A stretch of 24,356 nt of DNA from Candidatus Thorarchaeota archaeon (GTDB lineage: Archaea > Asgardarchaeota > Thorarchaeia > Thorarchaeales > Thorarchaeaceae). The DNA is taken from positions 1 to 24,356 of the forward strand of contig JAWAQK010000006.1 in the NCBI GenBank assembly GCA_038893995.1. Reading direction: 5' to 3'. Below, in pieces: positions 7,051 through 23,803 of this stretch (its first letter is position 1; each line of letters opens with the position of its first letter). The notes below the pieces were generated by a model that saw only the letters and a program-made list of their open reading frames with translations, was not told where the DNA came from and did not search any database. A program made the position numbers and the translations under genes.

Positions 7051-8913
7051 TTGCAGGCGTGGGAGTATCTGACGTCCCTGATGGGGCCGACCGATCGTGA
7101 TAGGGCGGCAGCACTAAGTCACCATCTACTGAAATTCATTGATGATTCTGCACGGCTCTGCCAGCCTGAGCGTATCCGTATCTTTGGTGACTCTGCCAGC
7201 GATGTTGACGAGGTCAGACGCATGGCCCTCCGTACTGGCGAGGAGTTCCAGCTGGCGATCGACGGTCACACATGCCATTTTGATGGGTACTTCGACCTGG
7301 CTAGAGACACAGGTAACACACGTTACCTGGTACCCCCAGGCGAATATCTGGATCCGACACTTAACCAGCTGGAACGTGAGGCCGGTCTCAACGAGATGCA
7401 TCGATTGCTCAGAGGCTCGATGGCTGGCAAGGACATGATCGTGCAGTTTCGTTCTCTCGGTCCAGTAGGTTCCACGTTCTCGATGCTTGCGCTTCAGATA
7501 ACGGACTCATACTACGTGGCCCACAGTACGAACATCCTCTACCGGTCTGCCTATAGGGTCTTCGTTGACAGCGAGACTCTCGGTCCCGTCCTTAGAGTGC
7601 TCCATTCTGCAGGACGTACTGAGAATGGTGTTTCAGCTGATGTGGCACACCGTAGGGTCTACATTGACCTGCTCGACGAGACTGTCTATAGCGTCAACAA
7701 CCAGTATGCCGGCAACTCTCTGGGCCTCAAGAAACTGGCCTTTCGTCTGGCAATTCGAAGGGCGCATCGGGAAGGTTGGCTTGCTGAACACATGTTCCTG
7801 ATGGGTGTACATGGTCCTGGCGGTCGTAAGGCATACTTCGCCGGCGCATTTCCCTCTGCTTGTGGTAAGACCAGTACCTGCATGGTACCCGGCGAGAGTG
7901 TGATAGGTGACGATATCTCGTACATCCGGAATGTCGGCGGGGTGACAAGGGCGGTCAACGTGGAACAGGGCATCTTTGGCATCATCCACGGTGTGAGTGA
8001 GGCGCATGATCCGATCATCTTTCGAGCGTTGATGACACCTGGGGAGGTCATCTTCTCGAACGTCCTGGTACATGATGGCACTCCGTACTGGTTGGGGGAC
8101 GGAAGAGAGCATCCCAGTAGTGGTCGTAACTTTGCCGGTGCATGGCGGCCCGGACTGAAGGGACCTGACGGGGCTGAGGTGCCTCTCGCACACGAGAATG
8201 CGAGGTATACAATGGGGCTGTCCAAGCTTGACAATGTGGACCCCGAGTTCAACAGTCCCCAGGGCGTCCCGTTGAGTGCGATACTCTATGGTGGTCGCGA
8301 CAGCGACACGAACGTGCCACTCAGGGAGGCGTTTGACTGGCAGCATGGCGTCATCACTATTGGTGCCTGTCTGGAGTCACAGACGACATCTGCGACTATC
8401 GGGAAGAAGGGTGTACGTGCCTTCCAACCCTTTGCCAACATCGATTTCATATCAATACCTCTGGGAAGGTACATCCTCGACCATCTCAAGTTTGGCGCAG
8501 GGCTGACAAGACCTCCCTCCATCTTCGGTGTAAACTACTTCTTAATCGATTCAGAGGGGCGGTACCTGAATTCGCGTGAAGACAAGAGAGTCTGGCTCAA
8601 GTGGATGGAGCGTCGGATTGCAGGTGAGATGGACGCAATCAGATCCCCTGTTGGATATCTGCCGCTATACTCGGACCTCAGGAGCCTCTTTAGGGTCGTC
8701 TTGGCCAAGGACTACTCACATGCGGACTACGAGATCCAGTTCTCAGTCCGAATAGCACGTCTGTTGGAGAGAAACGAACGGATGAGGACAATATACAGCA
8801 ACATTCGAGAGGTGCCGCGAGAGCTGTTTCTTGAACTGGATGCGGAGAGAGAACGACTACTTAGGGCGCGAGACATGTACGGTGATCTTGCCAGCCCGGA
8901 GTCATTCGTCTGA
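7051..8913 (+). CDS. pckG: Phosphoenolpyruvate carboxykinase (GTP)
   Basis: Motifs YAGNSLGLKKLAFRL, GWLAEHMFLMG, AFPSACGKTST (P-loop), IGDDI, HENARY and GGRDSDT. The TTG start is uncertain. Confidence 0.95.
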   Translation: MQAWEYLTSLMGPTDRDRAAALSHHLLKFIDDSARLCQPERIRIFGDSASDVDEVRRMALRTGEEFQLAIDGHTCHFDGYFDLARDTGNTRYLVPPGEYLDPTLNQLEREAGLNEMHRLLRGSMAGKDMIVQFRSLGPVGSTFSMLALQITDSYYVAHSTNILYRSAYRVFVDSETLGPVLRVLHSAGRTENGVSADVAHRRVYIDLLDETVYSVNNQYAGNSLGLKKLAFRLAIRRAHREGWLAEHMFLMGVHGPGGRKAYFAGAFPSACGKTSTCMVPGESVIGDDISYIRNVGGVTRAVNVEQGIFGIIHGVSEAHDPIIFRALMTPGEVIFSNVLVHDGTPYWLGDGREHPSSGRNFAGAWRPGLKGPDGAEVPLAHENARYTMGLSKLDNVDPEFNSPQGVPLSAILYGGRDSDTNVPLREAFDWQHGVITIGACLESQTTSATIGKKGVRAFQPFANIDFISIPLGRYILDHLKFGAGLTRPPSIFGVNYFLIDSEGRYLNSREDKRVWLKWMERRIAGEMDAIRSPVGYLPLYSDLRSLFRVVLAKDYSHADYEIQFSVRIARLLERNERMRTIYSNIREVPRELFLELDAERERLLRARDMYGDLASPESFV

Positions 8914-11295
8914 GCCCCCTTCGAACCTTCTGACTCTCACTAGGATTGAGTTGAACCCCGGTGTATGACCGAACGCCGTGTGTCGGTCCTCAGTCAAGAC
9001 GTTGACGTTTCCATCGTCATTCCACCACCCATCGGAGAGCCAGATGACTCGTGGGTCGATGTCATTCGTGACCTCAAGACGAATGTCTGGTAGGACTCCA
9101 TGTCTTGACTCGATCGTGACCCTGTCGCCATCACTGAGTCCGAGTGACCTTGCGGTGTCCGGATGCATCCTGACGAACGATCTCCTTCCCCTCACTTCGT
9201 CCCGACATGGCATCCTGATGGGCTGGACGATCACCCCGAAGGGACAGTAGTCAAGCTCGCACTCCCTGCATCCTATGCACAGACTTGGGTCCCAACTCGG
9301 TACCAATAGACTGGTGATTTCCAGAGGGACTGCCAGAGGTCTGCTATCCGATCTGACTGAGAGGCCTCTGACGTGTTCGGTCAGTCTGACCCTCAGTTTT
9401 GCTCGAGCGTTGGTCATGCCTTCTTCCGCCGCGGCGACAATCTGTGCAGCGCTTGGCGGCACGAGGGAGATCGCCTTGTCCGGACACTTCTCGACGCATC
9501 TCTGGCAGGTCGTGCACTGGGCGAAGCTCTTGACTGAACCGCCTGTACTGACTGTGGTGTACTGCGAGTGAAGCCTGTCTCTCAGCCTTCCCGAGATCAT
9601 GATGAGCGGATAGTCCCTGTACAGATCGGGCGTGCTGACAGGACTCTCTGCAGGCTCCTCGTGGAAGGGCAATGGATCGTATCCCATCTCGAGAAGGGTC
9701 CTCGAATACAGCTCGACCTTACCCGATGGTGTGTTGAATACACGGTTGGCAAACGGTATCACCTCTGACTTCGTACGTATTCCCTCGGGATGCTCTATGA
9801 GGCTCTCGAGTGAGATGTGAGCGCATTCCTCTGACCTCAACGCCTCACGAATGAGGTCGAGCTCATCGGCCTGGAAATAGTGACCGAGACCAAGCCTCTC
9901 TGCAATACCACGCCATATGTCGAGTTCGCTCCGGCACTCTCCCACTGGCTCGATCAACTTCGGTGCGTACTGTACGATACGGTGTAGCTCGCTGTACACC
10001 AAGTTGTGATGCTCGAATATGAAGGTGGCTGGCAAGACGATGTCACACATTCGTGCCGTGTCGGTCATCTCAAGATCGATACAGACCTTGAACGGAATTC
10101 TCTTCAATGCCTCAACGGTGAGACCGGTGTTGGGCCACTGAGTGAGCGGGCTTGCTGCCTGGATGACCAACACACGCAGTGGGCAGGTCGTGGAGTTCAT
10201 GATGAGCCGGGGCAAGTAAGTCGCGGACGGTACGACCGGTCTGACAGACTCGTCCAGTAGGTGGTCGAGAGTGACGCCTCGGTTGTTGAAGGGACTGCAG
10301 TCTGATGAGAGGTACTGGAAACCGCCGCCACTGACTCCAAGATAACCACATATTGCGAGGAGACTGTGTACCGCCCTTGCAGCCCAAGTACCGTTCGTGT
10401 AGTGGTTCATTCCAGCCGGGGCCGTCATGATCAGCCCTGGCCCATGCGTAGCAAAGGTCACTGCGATGTCCCGAATGATGCTCGGACTGACCCACGTGAG
10501 ACTACTCACTCGCTGCACGTCATACTCGCGCACTCTCTGACAGTACTCCTCGAAGCCCACGACATACTTCTCCACGAAATCGCGATTCCACAGCCCTCTC
10601 TCTATTATCACGTTGGCGATACCCAGTGCCAGTGCACCATCGGTCCCCGGTCGTATTGTCGTATATATGTGGGCCATCTTTGCATGCGGAGTCCTTCTGG
10701 GGTCGATCACTATCAGCTTGGCACCTCTATCGAGTGCCTCCTGTATCACTCTCTTGCAGTGAAGACTTGACTCGAACTTGTTTGTACCCCATATGACGAG
10801 ACAACGCGAGTTCGCCCAGTCTTTCAACTCATGCGGCGGGAATGGCCCGACGTTGAAACGAGCGCCCTCATATGCTCCCTTGAAGCATATCTCTGATATC
10901 CCCGGGATCATCCTGGTCCCCAGTGCATTTGCAAACCTGGCTGCGTATCTGGGTGCCATACCATCATTTCCCGATCCCGAGTATATCCCGACTGACTGGG
11001 GCCCGAACTCTCGTCTGGCCTCATCTATTCTCTGTGCGATATCGTCCAGGGCCTCGTCCCAAGATATGCGTATGAAGGAGCCATCCGGCTGTCTTCTCAG
11101 TGGATGCTTCAGTCGGTCCCCGTAGTAGGTCCTCATTGCATGGGCGTAGCCCTTAGGACAGCACCTTCCCAGCGTGTAGGGGTGATTTGGGTCTCCAAGT
11201 ATGCGTGTTACTCTGCCATCCTCGATGACTACCTGGTACGCGCATATGTCTGGGCAGTTGAGAGCACAGGCGGAGTACTTGACTTCGCGGGGCAT
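8902..11295 (-). CDS. Mo/W-bisPGD (DMSO reductase superfamily) oxidoreductase catalytic subunit with an inserted 2x[4Fe-4S] ferredoxin module
   Basis: N-terminal Fe-S motif CALNCPDIC...GRCCPKG, RLKHPL, ISWDEALD, IDPRRT, IRPGTDGALALG, TDTARMCDIVLPA and TPSGKVEL. C-terminal MHPDTARSLGLSDGDRV...NVNVLT. No Tat signal. Candidate Cys ligand in EICFKG. SD GGAGGAG upstream. Confidence 0.92.
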   Translation of the reverse strand: MPREVKYSACALNCPDICAYQVVIEDGRVTRILGDPNHPYTLGRCCPKGYAHAMRTYYGDRLKHPLRRQPDGSFIRISWDEALDDIAQRIDEARREFGPQSVGIYSGSGNDGMAPRYAARFANALGTRMIPGISEICFKGAYEGARFNVGPFPPHELKDWANSRCLVIWGTNKFESSLHCKRVIQEALDRGAKLIVIDPRRTPHAKMAHIYTTIRPGTDGALALGIANVIIERGLWNRDFVEKYVVGFEEYCQRVREYDVQRVSSLTWVSPSIIRDIAVTFATHGPGLIMTAPAGMNHYTNGTWAARAVHSLLAICGYLGVSGGGFQYLSSDCSPFNNRGVTLDHLLDESVRPVVPSATYLPRLIMNSTTCPLRVLVIQAASPLTQWPNTGLTVEALKRIPFKVCIDLEMTDTARMCDIVLPATFIFEHHNLVYSELHRIVQYAPKLIEPVGECRSELDIWRGIAERLGLGHYFQADELDLIREALRSEECAHISLESLIEHPEGIRTKSEVIPFANRVFNTPSGKVELYSRTLLEMGYDPLPFHEEPAESPVSTPDLYRDYPLIMISGRLRDRLHSQYTTVSTGGSVKSFAQCTTCQRCVEKCPDKAISLVPPSAAQIVAAAEEGMTNARAKLRVRLTEHVRGLSVRSDSRPLAVPLEITSLLVPSWDPSLCIGCRECELDYCPFGVIVQPIRMPCRDEVRGRRSFVRMHPDTARSLGLSDGDRVTIESRHGVLPDIRLEVTNDIDPRVIWLSDGWWNDDGNVNVLTEDRHTAFGHTPGFNSILVRVRRFEGGSDE

Positions 11296-11373
11296 CGTTC
11301 TCCTCCGTGATCTTCATGCTTGAATACTCATTGTTTGGGTCACGGTAGTCCGTGTCACTGGTCCACGTCAGTA

Positions 11374-11402
11374 TGATGTACATTCCTGTACATCAATGTA
11401 CT
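11374..11402. promoter_or_regulatory. Three phased TGTACA/TGTACT boxes, matching the TrpY TRP-box consensus
   Basis: TGTACA 11377-11382, TGTACA 11387-11392 and TGTACT 11397-11402, with a 10-bp period and 4-bp spacers. The first two form a perfect 9-bp inverted repeat, TGATGTACA-TTCC-TGTACATCA. They lie directly upstream of the trpB2 leader TATA box. Confidence 0.7.
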
Positions 11403-11410
11403 TAATAGGA

Positions 11411-11424
11411 CAATACTTATAAGG
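11411..11424 (+). promoter_or_regulatory. TATA-box promoter of the trpB2-1 leader transcript
   Basis: CAATACTTATAAGG, with TTATAA at 11417-11422. A near-identical CAATGCTTATAAGA sits at the equivalent position before trpB2-2. Confidence 0.72.
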
Positions 11425-11468
11425 GGGTTCACGGCATCGCCCGGTCGGTCTACCCTGAGGTGATTCGA

Positions 11469-11522
11469 ATGGTGAGCGTGTGTCTGCTCCACTGGTATTG
11501 GGGTCCGAGAGGACCCGTCTAG
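11469..11522 (+). CDS. Trp-containing leader peptide (uORF) of trpB2-1: MVSVCLLHWYWGPRGPV
   Basis: SD GAGGTGA (11457-11463), ATG 11469, two TGG codons (positions 9 and 11) and TAG 11520-11522. A same-length homolog lies upstream of the second trpB2. Confidence 0.75.
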   Translation: MVSVCLLHWYWGPRGPV

Positions 11523-11532
11523 TCAGCTCACC
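11497..11532 (+). repeat. 36-nt sequence repeated exactly at 22299-22334
   Basis: ATTGGGGTCCGAGAGGACCCGTCTAGTCAGCTCACC is present in both trpB2 leaders. Confidence 0.97.
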
Positions 11533-11682
11533 GTCCACCGAGGGTATCTCTTCTGTTTCTCTTGCGCGCTCGGCACCCACTGAGTGGAAGGGCGGATTGA
11601 GCTCTCAGATGTCAGTGGTCTCCGCACGGTACTCCATCAACATCTCAGGACAGACCACCTCAGAACAATGGTGAGATCCGAG

Positions 11683-12993
11683 ATGAAGACAGAATTCACA
11701 CGAGTGATCTTGAACCAAGAAGACCTTCCGAAGAACTATGTGAACATCGTACCGCATCTGAGAAGTCCTCTGCCCCCTCCCATCGATCCTCGCACGTCTC
11801 AGCCGATCGACCCCGAGGCGCTGAAGGCACTCTTTCCTGTCGAATGCATAAGACAGGAGGTGAGTACGGCCAGGGAGATCCGGATACCGGACGAACTCCG
11901 CGAGGCATACCTACAGATAGGACGTCCGACCCCACTCCAGAGAGCCGTGCATCTCGAGGCGGCCCTGAAGACACCAGCTAGGATATACTTCAAGCGAGAG
12001 GACACATCTCCAACTGGGAGCCACAAGCTCAATACAGCATTGGCACAGGCCTACTTCGCATCGAAGGAGGGTACTGAGAGGCTCGCCACGGAGACCGGTG
12101 CAGGGCAATGGGGGAGCGCTGTTGCGTACGCCGCGGCGCACTTCGGTCTGAAGGCCACCATCTACATGGTCAGTGCAAGCTACGAGCAGAAACCCTACCG
12201 AGGCATCATGATGAGGATGTATGGAGCCGATGTGACTCCCTCGCCATCCGACCGTACTGAGGTGGGTCGAAAGATCAGGGCTACTGACCCAAACCATCCC
12301 GGCTCTCTCGGGATAGCCATCAGCGAGGCTCTCGAAGACACCATGAATAGTCCAAACACCAAATACACACTCGGCTCGGTCCTGAATCATGTCCTGCTAC
12401 ATCAGACAGTGATCGGACAGGAGGTCGTCCAGCAGCTCAGGATGATTGGTGAGACTCCCGATGTGATAGTGGGATGTGTCGGCGGTGGTAGCAACTTTGC
12501 AGGCATGAGCTATCCCTTTCTGGCGCGGTCCGAATACCGTGATGTCGATTTCCTGGCCGTGGAACCTGTCGTTTGCGGAAAGATGACTAGGGGAGAGTAT
12601 CGTTACGACTATGGCGATTCTGCTGGCCTGACACCCATGTTGAAGATGCACACGCTCGGGGCAGACTTCACCCCGCCGCGGATTCATGCAGGAGGTCTCA
12701 GGTATCACGGTGTCGCTCCGACCATCAGTGCACTGATACTGGAGGGCCGCATCCGGCCAGTGGCATATGAGCAGGTCGAGGTGCTTGAGGCCGGCCGACT
12801 CTTCGCTCGTTCAGAGGGAATCGTGCCCGCTCCCGAGTCGTCTCACGCCATAAAGGCGGTCATTGATCTTGCCCTCAAGGCCAAGCAGGAGAAGCGGGAG
12901 CGTGTCATCGTGTTCAACCTCTCCGGTCACGGTCACTTCGACATGGCGGCCTACGGCTCTCTGATGGACGGGACGCTCGGCAGCGCAGCCTAA
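11683..12993 (+). CDS. trpB2: Tryptophan synthase beta chain, TrpB2 type (copy 1)
   Basis: PLP lysine motif [38 protein letters not shown], the TrpB2-specific HAGGLRYHG, and [12 protein letters not shown] 11683 follows GGTGAG and aligns with the copy 2 N-terminus; ATG 11668 is an alternative start. Confidence 0.95.
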
Positions 12994-22047: not shown

Positions 22048-22210
22048 TGAACGCATCAGCCTGTGTTGGCCCAGCCACGCCTGCGGCTCCATATTCTAGA
22101 CCTCCCTGGAGCCATCGCGGACTACGCCTACCACCAGTCTGATCGAGCGGCAGTGACTCTGTCAACCGGCCGTCAGTCGAGTTCTCGCCGGAGCTAGTTG
22201 CCACAGACAT

Positions 22211-22224
22211 CAATGCTTATAAGA
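22211..22224 (+). promoter_or_regulatory. TATA-box promoter of the trpB2-2 leader transcript
   Basis: CAATGCTTATAAGA, with TTATAA at 22217-22222; homologous to 11411-11424. Confidence 0.72.
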
Positions 22225-22266: not shown

Positions 22267-22486
22267 ACAGATGGTGCGAGTTGGTCTACGCCACTGTCAT
22301 TGGGGTCCGAGAGGACCCGTCTAGTCAGCTCACCATCTGTCGCCAGGACCAATTCTCATTCTGCCTCGCACATTCTGAGCTCTGGAGTAGTCTCCGGTCC
22401 AGACTCATTCTTCGCACCCAGTCTTGGGACTGGACATCCTGCGGACTCGGGAAGGACCCTCCCAGAACAGGAAGTGAAAATAAGAC
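22267..22486 (+). promoter_or_regulatory. Structured 5' leader / candidate attenuator of trpB2-2
   Basis: GAGA-loop hairpin 22303-22318; helices 22267-22276/22331-22340, 22327-22332/22376-22381 and 22376-22386/22398-22407, the last followed by TTCTTC. Confidence 0.65.
22271..22324 (+). CDS. Trp-containing leader peptide (uORF) of trpB2-2: MVRVGLRHCHWGPRGPV
   Basis: SD GAGGAG (22257-22262), ATG 22271, TGG at codon 11 and TAG 22322-22324. Same length and frame as 11469-11522. Confidence 0.72.
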   Translation: MVRVGLRHCHWGPRGPV

Positions 22487-23803
22487 ATGACCAGACCAAT
22501 ACGAGTTACACTTGGCATTGAAGACTTACCAAGAAGCTATGTGAATATCGTACCATACCTGAGGGAACCGCTTCCTCCCGCAGTTGACCCAGTGACATCC
22601 GAACCTGTCACTGTGGAGAGACTGTCTGCAGTATTCCCCACTGAGTGTGCGAGGCAGGAGTTGTGTACAGACCCGGAGATACCGATTCCAGAAGAACTCC
22701 GTGAGTCCTACATACAGATAGGTCGACCAACGCCCCTCCAGAGAGCAGTCCACCTCGAGCAGAAGCTCAGGACCCCGGCAAGGATCTATTTCAAGAGGGA
22801 AGACCTGTCTCCAACGGGGAGTCATAAGCTCAACACTGCTCTTGCACAGGCGTACTTTGCGCTGAAAGACGGTGCACAGCGCCTCACTGCAGAGACGGGA
22901 GCCGGACAATGGGGCTGTGCCGTCGCTCTTGCTGCATCACACTTTGGTCTTAGTGCCTCGATCTATATGGTGCGGACAAGCTTTGAGCAAAAGCCCTACA
23001 GGACATTCATGATGAGGATGTATGGTGCAGAAGTCATCCAGTCTCCATCGGAACTGACTGAGTCCGGCAAGAGGGTCCGTGCGAATTCCCCTGAACATCC
23101 CGGATCCATCGGCATTGCCATCAGCGAGGCCGTCGAAGACACGCTACACAGTCCTGGTACCAAGTACGCAAACGGTTCTGTGATGAACCACGTACTCCTT
23201 CACCAGACTGTCATAGGCCAGGAAGTGGTTCAACAACTGAGGAAGGTCGATGAGACGCCAGATGCAGTCGTGGGATGTGTGGGAGGCGGCAGCAACTTCG
23301 CAGGGATAAGCTATCCCATGATGGTCAGACCTGAATACAGAGATGTCAGCTTCATTGCGGTTGAACCTGATGCGTGCAATAAGATGACGAGAGGCGAGTA
23401 CCGGTATGACTTCATCGACTCAGCTGGTCTGCTCCCAAGGCTGAAGATGCACACACTCGGTGCAGACTTCACGCCAAGGCGAATACATGCGGGTGGACTC
23501 AGATATCACGGTGTGTCGCCCACGGTCAGCGTCCTCATCAATGAGCGACGAGTTCATCCCGTCGCCTATGACCAGGTGGCTGTCCTAGAGGCTGGCCGGC
23601 TCTTTGCCCAGACAGAGGGGATCGTCCCCGCTCCTGAGTCTTCCCACGCAATAAGAGCAGCCATTGACCTTGCGACTGCGGCTCGAAGAGATGACAGAGA
23701 GATGGTCATTGTCTTCAATCTCTCTGGTCATGGCCATTTTGACATGGGTGCCTATGGTATGCTCATGGATGGTGCACTGGCCATGCCCCCGCTCGCCGCA
23801 TGA
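22487..23803 (+). CDS. trpB2: Tryptophan synthase beta chain, TrpB2 type (copy 2, divergent)
   Basis: Motifs [39 protein letters not shown] and NLSGHGHFD; colinear with copy 1. Confidence 0.95.
   Translation: MTRPIRVTLGIEDLPRSYVNIVPYLREPLPPAVDPVTSEPVTVERLSAVFPTECARQELCTDPEIPIPEELRESYIQIGRPTPLQRAVHLEQKLRTPARIYFKREDLSPTGSHKLNTALAQAYFALKDGAQRLTAETGAGQWGCAVALAASHFGLSASIYMVRTSFEQKPYRTFMMRMYGAEVIQSPSELTESGKRVRANSPEHPGSIGIAISEAVEDTLHSPGTKYANGSVMNHVLLHQTVIGQEVVQQLRKVDETPDAVVGCVGGGSNFAGISYPMMVRPEYRDVSFIAVEPDACNKMTRGEYRYDFIDSAGLLPRLKMHTLGADFTPRRIHAGGLRYHGVSPTVSVLINERRVHPVAYDQVAVLEAGRLFAQTEGIVPAPESSHAIRAAIDLATAARRDDREMVIVFNLSGHGHFDMGAYGMLMDGALAMPPLAA

What the first reader, a model, noticed from the sequence alone, without database searches (positions are those of the whole stretch)
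11374..11422. Phased TGTACA TRP boxes next to the trpB2-1 TATA box, absent from copy 2
Seen: TGTACA-N4-TGTACA-N4-TGTACT, a degenerate AGGACA in phase (11407-11412), then TTATAA (11417-11422). Known: euryarchaeal TrpY (Methanothermobacter) binds TGTACA TRP boxes, including upstream of trpB2. Inference: copy 1 has two-tier control, a TrpY-like repressor plus an attenuator, analogous to TrpR plus trpL in E. coli. The copy 2 promoter retains only ACATCAATG-CTTATAAG and no TGTACA. The boxes lie in a divergent intergenic region, so they might instead, or also, control the Mo/W-oxidoreductase.
Basis: partly seen in the sequence, partly recalled or inferred. Interest (0 to 1): 0.75.

Follow-up and report, generated by a model that had tools for sequence, protein, structure and literature searches.

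The report
TrpY-type operator boxes before trpB2
Three to four evenly spaced TGTACA boxes just upstream of the promoter of one of this Asgard (Thorarchaeota) archaeon's two tryptophan-making trpB2 genes are a real, conserved operator, most likely for the known archaeal tryptophan regulator TrpY; this is a solid new example of a known switch, not a new kind.

Summary
TGTACA (11377-82), TGTACA (11387-92), TGTACT (11397-402) and a degenerate AGGACA (11407-12) lie at an exact 10-bp period, ending 4 nt before TTATAA (11417-22). The finding's start coordinate is 3 nt early.

A matrix built only from relatives ranks this array as the best site in the 2.33-Mb genome. The same phased boxes abut the TATA box of trpB2 in all 14 other Thorarchaeota loci examined, although the upstream neighbour varies. 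The Mo-oxidoreductase is the neighbour only here and in one close relative.

A full-length TrpY-family regulator (HTH + ACT) is encoded on contig C43 and was found in all 24 family genomes sampled. In Jord-, Hod-, Bathy-, Brockarchaeota and others, its homolog sits divergently next to trpB2 with the same dyad between them. The four Thor genomes that have trpE carry the array there too. Families with trpB2 but no TrpY lack the boxes.

Copy 2 is a lineage-specific paralog that lost the boxes but kept the TATA box and leader.

Verdict: a TrpY/TRP-box operator, a new member of a known kind. Binding, sign and ligand are untested. The scan reached the same reading earlier on another Thorarchaeota genome and on a Bathyarchaeia genome.

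The parts
11377..11382 (+). TRP box 1 (TGTACA), distal, strong
   Evidence: conserved position in relatives
11387..11392 (+). TRP box 2 (TGTACA)
   Evidence: forms one of the genome's only two exact TGTACA-N4-TGTACA dyads with box 1
11397..11402 (+). TRP box 3 (TGTACT), one mismatch
   Evidence: in phase in relatives
11407..11412 (+). Degenerate box 4 (AGGACA), in phase, lying where the BRE is expected. In relatives this position reads TG(C/A)G(T/C)A and could be the BRE, a weak box, or both.
11416..11423 (+). TATA box (TTATAA core 11417-11422) of the trpB2-1 leader transcript
   Evidence: TTATAA is very rare in the genome: 56 copies against about 570 expected. The same element precedes copy 2 and all orthologs.
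11457..11522 (+). Shine-Dalgarno sequence (11457-11463) and 17-codon leader ORF (11469-11522) with two Trp codons. This is the proposed second control tier, downstream of the operator.
   Evidence: Leader ORFs of the same type start 49-55 nt after the TATA anchor in the relatives.
11668..12993 (+). trpB2 copy 1 (TrpB-like PLP enzyme), the regulated gene. The start is 11668 or 11683.
   Evidence: NF009057/TIGR01415 above cut-off
8902..11295 (-). Divergent molybdopterin oxidoreductase (Fdh-alpha-like with inserted ferredoxin domain). Not a conserved partner of the boxes.
22204..22222 (+). Copy 2 promoter: a remnant of one box plus the spacer, fused to TTATAA (22217-22222), with no TRP boxes
22487..23803 (+). 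trpB2 copy 2, sister paralog of copy 1 on a longer branch

Best explanation
The phased boxes are the operator of the trpB2-1 promoter for the genome's single TrpY-family regulator, an N-terminal HTH plus C-terminal ACT protein encoded unlinked on contig C43 inside a GNAT-TrpY-MFS operon.

Proposed mechanism (inferred): each HTH of a TrpY dimer reads one TGTACA. A dyad 10 bp apart is therefore one dimer site on one face of the helix, and the four boxes hold two dimers. Tryptophan bound to the ACT domains favours cooperative assembly from the strong distal boxes over the weak proximal box and the BRE. This keeps TFB and TBP off the promoter and shuts off the leader-trpB2 transcript.

The Trp-codon leader ORF further downstream would add a second, translational tier. 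Copy 2 lost the boxes and would answer only to the leader.

Shown here: the boxes, their phasing, their conservation, their restriction to trp-related promoters, and their co-occurrence with TrpY. Inferred: who binds, the sign of control, and the ligand.
For: - The site is real and unique in the genome.
- Phylogenetic footprint: all 14 other Thorarchaeota trpB2 promoters with upstream sequence score 15-21 of 24 on a four-box, 10-bp-phase statistic. Random G000 windows average 9.3, reach 15 or more in 0.08% of cases, and never reached 19 in 200,000 draws.
- TGTACA is 117-fold enriched in the 50 nt before the TATA box: 19 observed, 0.16 expected.
- The register relative to the TATA box stays within 1-3 nt in 14 of the 15 promoters, the window's included.
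- Between G000 and its closest relative, the boxes are the only conserved block of the intergenic region.
- Regulator: NF053754 TrpY_fam matched over 1-163/163, E 6e-47. It was found in 24/24 family genomes. The model has pLDDT 88, and its C-terminal ~73 residues superpose on ACT domains at 2-3.5 A.
- Linkage elsewhere: in 18 of 24 non-Thor loci (Jord-, Hod-, Promethearchaeota, Bathy-, Brockarchaeota, Thermoproteota, Nitrososphaerota), the TrpY homolog is the divergent neighbour of trpB2. In most of them a TGTACA-N4-TGTACA-like dyad lies next to the TATA box in the 100-180-nt spacer.
- Profile: the sampled phylum families that have trpB2 but no TrpY show no phased boxes.
- The four Thor genomes with trpE carry the same array + TATA + Trp-codon leader before trpE.
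- Literature: M. thermautotrophicus TrpY binds TRP boxes in the trpY-trpE promoter region and represses with Trp (PMC6737238). The TGTACA consensus and the trpB2 target come from my own knowledge of Xie & Reeve 2005 and Karr et al. 2008, which are not held in the library.
Against: - There is no binding or expression data.
- The Thor TrpY homolog scores 159.8 bits, under NCBIfam's 180-bit cut-off.
- It is unlinked to trpB2, sits in a conserved GNAT-TrpY-MFS operon, and has no boxes at its own promoter. This differs from Methanothermobacter and from the Jord/Bathy divergons.
- The T. kodakarensis TrpY homolog does not regulate trp genes (PMC6737238), so homology alone does not prove function.
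- TrpY is present in Thor genomes where no trpB2 was found with this query (9 of 24).
- Boxes that lie wholly upstream of the TATA box are also the usual geometry of archaeal activators.
Confidence: 0.75

Rival explanations
1. The same boxes are bound by TrpY (or another factor) as an activator: bound upstream of the BRE/TATA, it recruits TFB/TBP when tryptophan is low, as Tar does in Thermococcales.
For: The three strong boxes lie entirely upstream of the TATA box, which is the typical position of archaeal activators. Tar binds upstream of the BRE/TATA and activates trp promoters (PMC6737238).
Against: The proximal box abuts the TATA box and overlaps the expected BRE. At the second conserved target, the aminotransferase, the dyad in most genera lies 25-30 nt downstream of the TATA box, over the expected transcription start, which is a repressor geometry. 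In the Jord/Bathy divergons the boxes lie between the TATA box and the trpY start. The only characterised TrpY is a repressor.
Confidence: 0.12
2. A different DNA-binding protein recognises the boxes, for example the small winged-helix plus Cys-motif protein (about 117 aa) whose own promoter carries the same dyad in nine Thor genomes.
For: Nine of 52 exact dyads in 41 Thor genomes precede this wHTH gene, as expected for an autoregulated factor. Thor TrpY itself shows no autoregulatory boxes.
Against: In G000 only the C-terminal half of that protein is detectable and there are no boxes near it, yet G000 keeps perfect boxes at trpB2-1 and at the aminotransferase. Outside Thorarchaeota the dyad travels with TrpY in a divergon. 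TrpY is in 24/24 family genomes.
Confidence: 0.08
3. The boxes chiefly control the divergent Mo/W-oxidoreductase gene (8902-11295, minus strand), with the palindromic TTATAA serving as its TATA box, so that the boxes cover its transcription start.
For: TTATAA is a palindrome and the boxes lie between it and the oxidoreductase start, 80 nt away. The same gene pair exists in G013.
Against: The oxidoreductase is the neighbour in only 2 of the 28 trpB2 loci searched, G000 and G013, while the boxes stay with trpB2 in all 14 other Thor promoters examined. The sequence on the oxidoreductase side is not conserved between G000 and G013. An SD and leader ORF follow the TATA box at a fixed distance on the plus strand. 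The A-rich BRE-like bases are on the plus-strand side (inference).
Confidence: 0.04
4. It is a chance cluster of a common hexamer.
For: TGTACA is not rare in the genome: 543 copies, with 9 in the window against 5 expected.
Against: all contradict this: no shuffle or reversed control reproduces the array, and it is conserved across genera.
Confidence: 0.01

Closest known systems
TrpY / TRP-box system of Methanothermobacter thermautotrophicus (Xie & Reeve 2005; Karr et al. 2008, trpB2; summarised in PMC6737238)
   Same: The box has the same hexamer (TGTACA). Several boxes lie at the BRE/TATA of a tryptophan gene, and trpB2 is a target. The regulator belongs to the same family (NF053754, COG2150 'regulator of amino acid metabolism with ACT domain') with HTH + ACT. 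In four relatives the trpE operon is a target as well.
   Different: The lineage is Asgard (Thorarchaeota). The regulator is unlinked, embedded in a GNAT-TrpY-MFS operon, and lacks visible autoregulatory boxes. There are four boxes in strict 10-bp phase. A roughly 250-nt leader with a Trp-codon mini-ORF follows the promoter. The genome has no trpA, trpC or trpE, so trpB2 stands alone. The regulon also includes a KAT-II/Aro8-like aminotransferase.
TrpY-trpB2 divergons of Jordarchaeia, Hodarchaeota, Bathyarchaeia, Brockarchaeota and Thermoproteota (seen here; I found no paper on them in the library)
   Same: They share the same regulator family, the same dyad (TGTACA-N4-TGTACA or close to it) beside the trpB2 TATA box, and the same target gene.
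   Different: There the regulator is adjacent and the dyad also lies between the TATA box and the trpY start, which gives autoregulation geometry. There are two boxes, not four, and no long leader.
Tar (TK0271) of Thermococcus kodakarensis (PMC6737238)
   Same: It is an archaeal regulator of trp and aromatic amino acid promoters that binds just upstream of the BRE/TATA.
   Different: Tar is an activator and belongs to a different protein family. Its site is a palindrome, TGGACA-N8-TGTCCA, which is absent from G000.
E. coli TrpR repressor plus trpL leader attenuation
   Same: The logic is the same: a promoter-level tryptophan repressor is followed by a Trp-codon leader peptide on the same transcript.
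   Different: The proteins are unrelated and the transcription machinery differs. The mechanism of the archaeal leader is unknown. This is an analogy only.

Membership tests
TrpY/TRP-box operator | TGTACA hexamer boxes, more than one, clustered | tested here: met
   There are two exact boxes, one with a single mismatch and one degenerate, at a 10-bp period. The array is the top-scoring site in the genome with an independently built matrix. That TGTACA is the Methanothermobacter consensus comes from my own knowledge; the papers are not held.
TrpY/TRP-box operator | Boxes lie at or overlap the BRE/TATA of a tryptophan-biosynthesis promoter (trpB2, trpE operon) | tested here: met
   Box 4 ends 4 nt before TTATAA. 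The gene downstream is trpB2 (NF009057 at 670 bits, TIGR01415 at 630 bits). The same layout appears in the 14 other Thor trpB2 promoters and in 4 trpE promoters.
TrpY/TRP-box operator | A TrpY-family protein is encoded in the genome | tested here: met
   G000:C43:15827-16318(-) matches NF053754 over 1-163/163 with E 6e-47. Its 159.8 bits fall below the curated 180-bit cut-off, so it is a divergent member. The family was found in 24/24 family genomes, and the Jordarchaeales homologs score above the cut-off.
TrpY/TRP-box operator | Regulator architecture: N-terminal HTH plus C-terminal ACT-like ligand domain | tested here: met
   Pfam gives weak ACT hits at residues 114-182. The AlphaFold model has pLDDT 88.4, with a helical N-terminal domain and a beta-alpha-beta-beta-alpha-beta C-terminal domain. 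Foldseek aligns the C-terminal domain to ACT domains (IlvN, PGDH, TyrR) with probability 1.0 and rmsd 2-3.5 A. No solved relative was found by sequence.
TrpY/TRP-box operator | The regulator gene is divergent from a trp gene and autoregulated through the same boxes | tested here: not met
   In Thorarchaeota the gene lies in a GNAT-TrpY-MFS operon (77/80 and 68/80 loci) and there is no dyad at its promoter. The feature is met in Jord-, Hod-, Bathy- and Brockarchaeota and others. It belongs to the Methanothermobacter locus and is not required for operator function.
TrpY/TRP-box operator | Box-specific binding by TrpY and tryptophan-dependent repression | not testable with these tools
   This needs EMSA or footprinting and in vitro transcription.
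[quoted passage not shown] | TGGACA-N8-TGTCCA palindrome upstream of the BRE/TATA | tested here: not met
   There are no occurrences in the window or in the whole G000 genome.
Bacterial-type two-tier control (repressor + leader-peptide attenuation) | The operator is followed, on the same transcript, by a translated leader ORF with regulatory Trp codons | tested here: inconclusive
   An SD plus a 17-codon ORF with two Trp codons lies at 11457-11522. The ORF type (ending ...QW.WGPRGPV in many) is conserved in the relatives. A comparable Trp-codon ORF precedes trpE in four genomes. Whether and how it regulates was not tested here.

The most novel reading that the evidence does not exclude
Thorarchaeota run a true two-tier tryptophan control. 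A TrpY operator of four phased boxes acts at the promoter, and a ribosome-read Trp-codon leader peptide acts on the same transcript. The pair is installed at both trpB2 and, where present, trpE. In this genome, duplication has separated the tiers: copy 1 has both, copy 2 has the leader only. If so, this would be an archaeal counterpart of TrpR plus trpL, in an organism that has kept only the last, indole-salvaging step of the pathway.
Probability: 0.4. Interest if true: 0.7.

Novelty: new member of a known kind. Interest (0 to 1): 0.45.

Why it matters
Very few archaeal regulator-operator pairs are known, and almost none for Asgard archaea, which cannot yet be manipulated genetically. Here one hexamer operator and one regulator family appear to be shared by Euryarchaeota, TACK lineages and Asgard archaea. 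That gives a ready, cheap test: recombinant protein plus a 60-bp probe, with and without tryptophan. It also gives a regulon readable from sequence: trpB2, trpE, a KAT-II/Aro8-like aminotransferase and a small wHTH protein. The paralog pair in this window, one with boxes and one without, is a natural experiment for separating promoter-level from leader-level control. The biology itself, TrpY repressing trpB2 through TGTACA boxes, was already established in Methanothermobacter, so this extends a known system rather than revealing a new one.

Tried and rejected
- Rfam over the whole window gave no family at gathering score, so the boxes and leader match no known RNA family.
- The Mo-oxidoreductase as the real target was rejected on synteny and footprint.
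- A Tar-type palindrome is absent.
- I looked for autoregulatory boxes at the Thor TrpY operon and found none.
- The small wHTH protein as the box binder is weakened by its decay in G000.
- A third G000 site (C64:3352, two boxes before a 186-aa ORF) and a weak one (C47:5773) were looked at. They were left as probable background, because exact-dyad sites outside the conserved targets (about 9) roughly match the reversed-pattern control (11).
- The primary Methanothermobacter papers (PMC1236654, PMC2293193) could not be opened. No held paper links TrpY with TGTACA or with Asgard.
- A protein search from the Jordarchaeales TrpY listed only Asgard and Bathyarchaeia relatives among its top 120. I therefore could not fetch the Methanothermobacter locus to re-read its boxes myself.
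- The sigma-70 promoter scanner was not used because it does not apply to archaea.

Full report
**What is there**

Reading 11100-11700 shows TGTACA at 11377-11382, TGTACA at 11387-11392, TGTACT at 11397-11402, a degenerate AGGACA at 11407-11412 and TTATAA at 11417-11422. Each box is separated from the next by 4 nt, so the period is exactly 10 bp. The finding's start (11374) is 3 nt early; everything else is as described.

- Downstream on the plus strand lie a Shine-Dalgarno sequence (11457-11463), a 17-codon ORF with two Trp codons (11469-11522) and then trpB2 copy 1 (start 11668 or 11683, end 12993). Copy 1 matches the TrpB-like families NF009057 and TIGR01415 above their cut-offs.
- Upstream on the minus strand is a molybdopterin oxidoreductase (8902-11295).
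- A second trpB2 (22487-23803, 74% identical) has the same TATA box and leader but no TGTACA upstream.

**Is it more than chance?**

- The three-box pattern with up to two mismatches occurs only here in the window and in none of 100 shuffles.
- In the whole assembly (2.33 Mb, 82 contigs, 53.6% GC, 91% complete), TGTACA-N4-TGTACA occurs twice, against about 0.13 expected from 543 hexamers. The reversed pattern occurs 0 times.
- A position matrix built from relatives only, with the window left out, has the consensus R-A-TGTACA-W-T. It ranks this array first in the genome at 28.8 bits for three boxes and 32.6 bits for four. The runner-up scores 19.5, and the reversed genome gives nothing at 18 bits or more.

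**Who are the relatives, and do they keep it?**

The closest homologs of the regulator come from 'Candidatus Thorarchaeota archaeon' MAGs, so the genome is a Thorarchaeote (Asgard), as earlier notes of this scan also say.

- trpB2 orthologs were found in 15 of 24 sampled genomes of the family.
- In all 14 of these loci that have a usable promoter region, 2-4 (once 6) TGTACA-like boxes at 10-bp phase run up to the TATA box, about 270-300 nt before trpB2.
- On a four-box phase statistic these promoters score 15-21 of 24. Random G000 windows average 9.3, reach 15 or more in 0.08% of cases, and never reached 19 in 200,000 draws.
- TGTACA is 117-fold denser in the 50 nt before the TATA box than in the rest of the same loci: 19 observed against 0.16 expected.
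- The register relative to the TATA box is held within 1-3 nt in 14 of the 15 promoters scored, the window's own included.
- The promoter-proximal box is always weak (typically TG-C/A-G-T/C-A) and sits where the BRE should be. It may be the BRE, a weak box, or both.

**Which gene do the boxes belong to?**

- The oxidoreductase is the upstream neighbour of trpB2 only in G000 and in its closest relative G013.
- Between those two genomes, the box array is the only conserved block of the intergenic region.
- A Shine-Dalgarno sequence and a leader ORF start 49-55 nt after the TATA anchor in most relatives. The ORFs share a Q-W core, and many end in W-G-P-R-G-P-V.
- The TATA box and its boxes therefore serve the plus-strand leader-trpB2 transcript. 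A side effect on the oxidoreductase through the palindromic TTATAA cannot be excluded but has no support.

**Is there a TrpY?**

- Searching the genome for ACT domains led to a 186-aa frame on contig C43. It matches NCBIfam NF053754 'TrpY family transcription regulator' over the whole profile (1-163/163, E 6e-47, 159.8 bits, below the 180-bit cut-off).
- It probably starts at a GTG right after the stop of a GNAT acetyltransferase gene and is followed by an MFS transporter gene. That three-gene context is conserved in Thorarchaeota: GNAT in 77 and MFS in 68 of 80 loci.
- An AlphaFold model from a 14-sequence alignment is confident (pLDDT 88.4). Its C-terminal ~73 residues superpose on ACT domains at 2-3.5 A with probability 1.0. 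The whole protein resembles Lrp/AsnC-type HTH-plus-ligand-domain regulators only weakly. No solved relative is detectable by sequence.
- The family is in 24 of 24 sampled genomes of the Thor family. Among 13 other families of the phylum sampled, it is in only two.

**Co-occurrence and linkage**

- Both Jordarchaeales genomes sampled (family f7) have TrpY divergently adjacent to trpB2, with a two-box dyad next to the TATA box between them.
- Among the 24 non-Thor loci returned by a scan of one genome per species (Jord-, Hod-, Promethearchaeota, Bathy-, Brockarchaeota, Methanomethylicota, Thermoproteota, Nitrososphaerota), 18 have trpB2 as the divergent neighbour. Most carry a TGTACA-N4-TGTACA-like dyad beside a TATA element in the 100-180-nt spacer.
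- The sampled phylum families with trpB2 but no TrpY show no phased boxes.
- This regulator-operator-target triad is what is described for Methanothermobacter thermautotrophicus. There TrpY binds TRP boxes in the trpY-trpE promoter region and represses with tryptophan (PMC6737238). The TGTACA consensus and the trpB2 target are from my own knowledge of Xie & Reeve 2005 and Karr et al. 2008, which could not be opened.

**The regulon in Thorarchaeota**

Exact dyads number 52 in 41 genomes of the family, against 11 for the reversed pattern. They fall as follows.

| Target promoter | Exact dyads |
|---|---|
| Class I/II aminotransferase | 28 |
| 117-aa winged-helix protein with a Cys motif | 9 |
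| trpB2 | 4 |
| hisG | 1 |
| trpE | 1 |
| Scattered (about the background level) | about 9 |

- The aminotransferase's best solved relatives are the Pyrococcus KAT-II homolog PH0207, the Thermococcus multiple-substrate aminotransferase, and kynurenine/aminoadipate and Aro8 aminotransferases.
- The genome's other exact dyad (C4:21461) precedes this aminotransferase gene.
- In most genera that dyad lies 25-30 nt downstream of a strongly conserved BRE/TATA, over the expected transcription start. This is a repressor geometry.
- trpE is found in only 4 of 41 family genomes. All four carry the phased array plus the TATA box plus a short Trp-codon ORF before it.
- G000 itself has no detectable trpA, trpC or trpE (91% complete). 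Its two trpB2 genes therefore stand alone, presumably making tryptophan from indole.
- Repressing both trpB2 and an aromatic-type aminotransferase when tryptophan is plentiful would be coherent, but this is inference.

**Copy 2**

In a maximum-likelihood tree, the two G000 copies are sisters (support 100/99), and copy 2 is on the longer branch (0.40 against 0.12). All orthologs carry boxes, so the box-less promoter of copy 2 is derived. Relative to copy 1 it retains part of box 2, the spacer and two bases of box 3 fused to the TATA box, which looks like a 17-bp deletion.

**Mechanism proposed**

TGTACA is too short to be a dimer site, and the conserved minimal unit across phyla is two boxes 10 bp apart. 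I therefore infer one HTH per box, one dimer per dyad and two dimers on the four-box array, all on one face of the DNA. Tryptophan binding to the ACT domains would promote assembly from the strong distal boxes across the weak proximal box and the BRE, excluding TFB and TBP.

This fits what I recall of Karr et al. 2008: repression of trpB2 needs TrpY assembly beyond simple box binding. The position upstream of the TATA box would also suit an activator, so the sign of control needs an experiment. I put 0.75 on 'TrpY-family protein binds here and controls trpB2-1 in response to tryptophan', and about 0.12 of the remainder on activation rather than repression.

**Comparison and novelty**

This is the TrpY/TRP-box system in a new lineage. 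It differs from the Methanothermobacter case in these ways:
- the regulator is unlinked and not visibly autoregulated;
- there are four strictly phased boxes;
- a conserved Trp-codon leader lies downstream;
- the target set is rewired (aminotransferase, wHTH protein);
- the rest of the trp pathway is missing.

No held paper mentions TrpY together with Asgard archaea. PMC6737238 states that Crenarchaeota almost lack TrpY homologs, whereas I see TrpY-trpB2 divergons in several TACK lineages.

The scan reached the same reading earlier on another Thorarchaeota genome (e1-5701078) and on a Bathyarchaeia genome (e1-5284607). I read those notes after finishing my own tests, and they agree.

Class: new member of a known kind. 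Interest is moderate.

Noticed in passing
L192, L193, L194, L195 (trpE loci of G008, G007, G013, G019), about 150-230 nt upstream of trpE: Only 4 of 41 Thorarchaeota genomes have trpE. All four carry the same phased box array + TATA, followed by a short ORF (M-T-R-R...C-H/V-W...) with a Trp codon. The 'operator plus Trp-codon leader' pair is therefore not peculiar to trpB2.
   Followed up: partly
L001:1501-1516 (G000:C4:21461-21476) and L001:1643-2908: The genome's only other exact TGTACA-N4-TGTACA dyad precedes a KAT-II/Aro8-like aminotransferase. This is the most widely conserved dyad target in the family (28 of 52 exact dyads). In most genera the dyad lies 25-30 nt downstream of a highly conserved BRE/TATA; in G000 and G024 it lies about 45 nt upstream of it, and G010 has both.
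   Followed up: partly
L082, L083, L086, L092, L174-L176, L178, L182; G000:C5:42601-42798: A roughly 117-aa winged-helix protein with a C-terminal Cys motif has the same box array in its promoter in nine Thor genomes. In G000 only its C-terminal half is recognisable, so the gene may be decayed there.
   Followed up: partly
L069:1501-1560 (G013:C71), hisG at L069:1782-2762: A four-box array + TATA with the trpB2-type layout lies 281 nt upstream of hisG (ATP phosphoribosyltransferase) in one genome. This may be a regulon extension to histidine genes, or chance.
   Followed up: no
L063:1486-3878 (G000:C43): In Thorarchaeota the TrpY homolog is embedded in a conserved GNAT acetyltransferase - TrpY - MFS transporter operon (77/80 and 68/80 loci). 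This hints at a link to an acetylated or exported amino-acid derivative.
   Followed up: partly
whole genome G000: TTATAA (56), TTTAAA (48) and AAATTT (21) are about ten-fold rarer than other palindromic hexamers (about 570 expected each). This is consistent with strong avoidance of spurious TATA boxes.
   Followed up: no
whole genome G000: No trpA, trpC (IGPS) or trpE was detected (assembly 91% complete), while two trpB2 copies are present. This looks like an indole-salvage lifestyle for tryptophan.
   Followed up: partly
L179:1682-3010 (G019:C5): trpE of G019 reads as two consecutive frames (214 aa and 216 aa), which may be a frameshift, a pseudogene or an assembly error.
   Followed up: no
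window 11488-11530 and 22290-22335: An uninterrupted run of about 40 identical bases is shared by the two leaders (end of the leader ORF and beyond), although the coding regions are only 74% identical at the protein level. This suggests strong constraint or gene conversion. It was covered by other findings of this scan.
   Followed up: no
L061:2003-2022 (G000:C64:3354-3373): A two-box site (TGTACA-N4-TGTACT) lies directly before a 186-aa ORF of unknown family. It was not annotated and is probably background.
   Followed up: no
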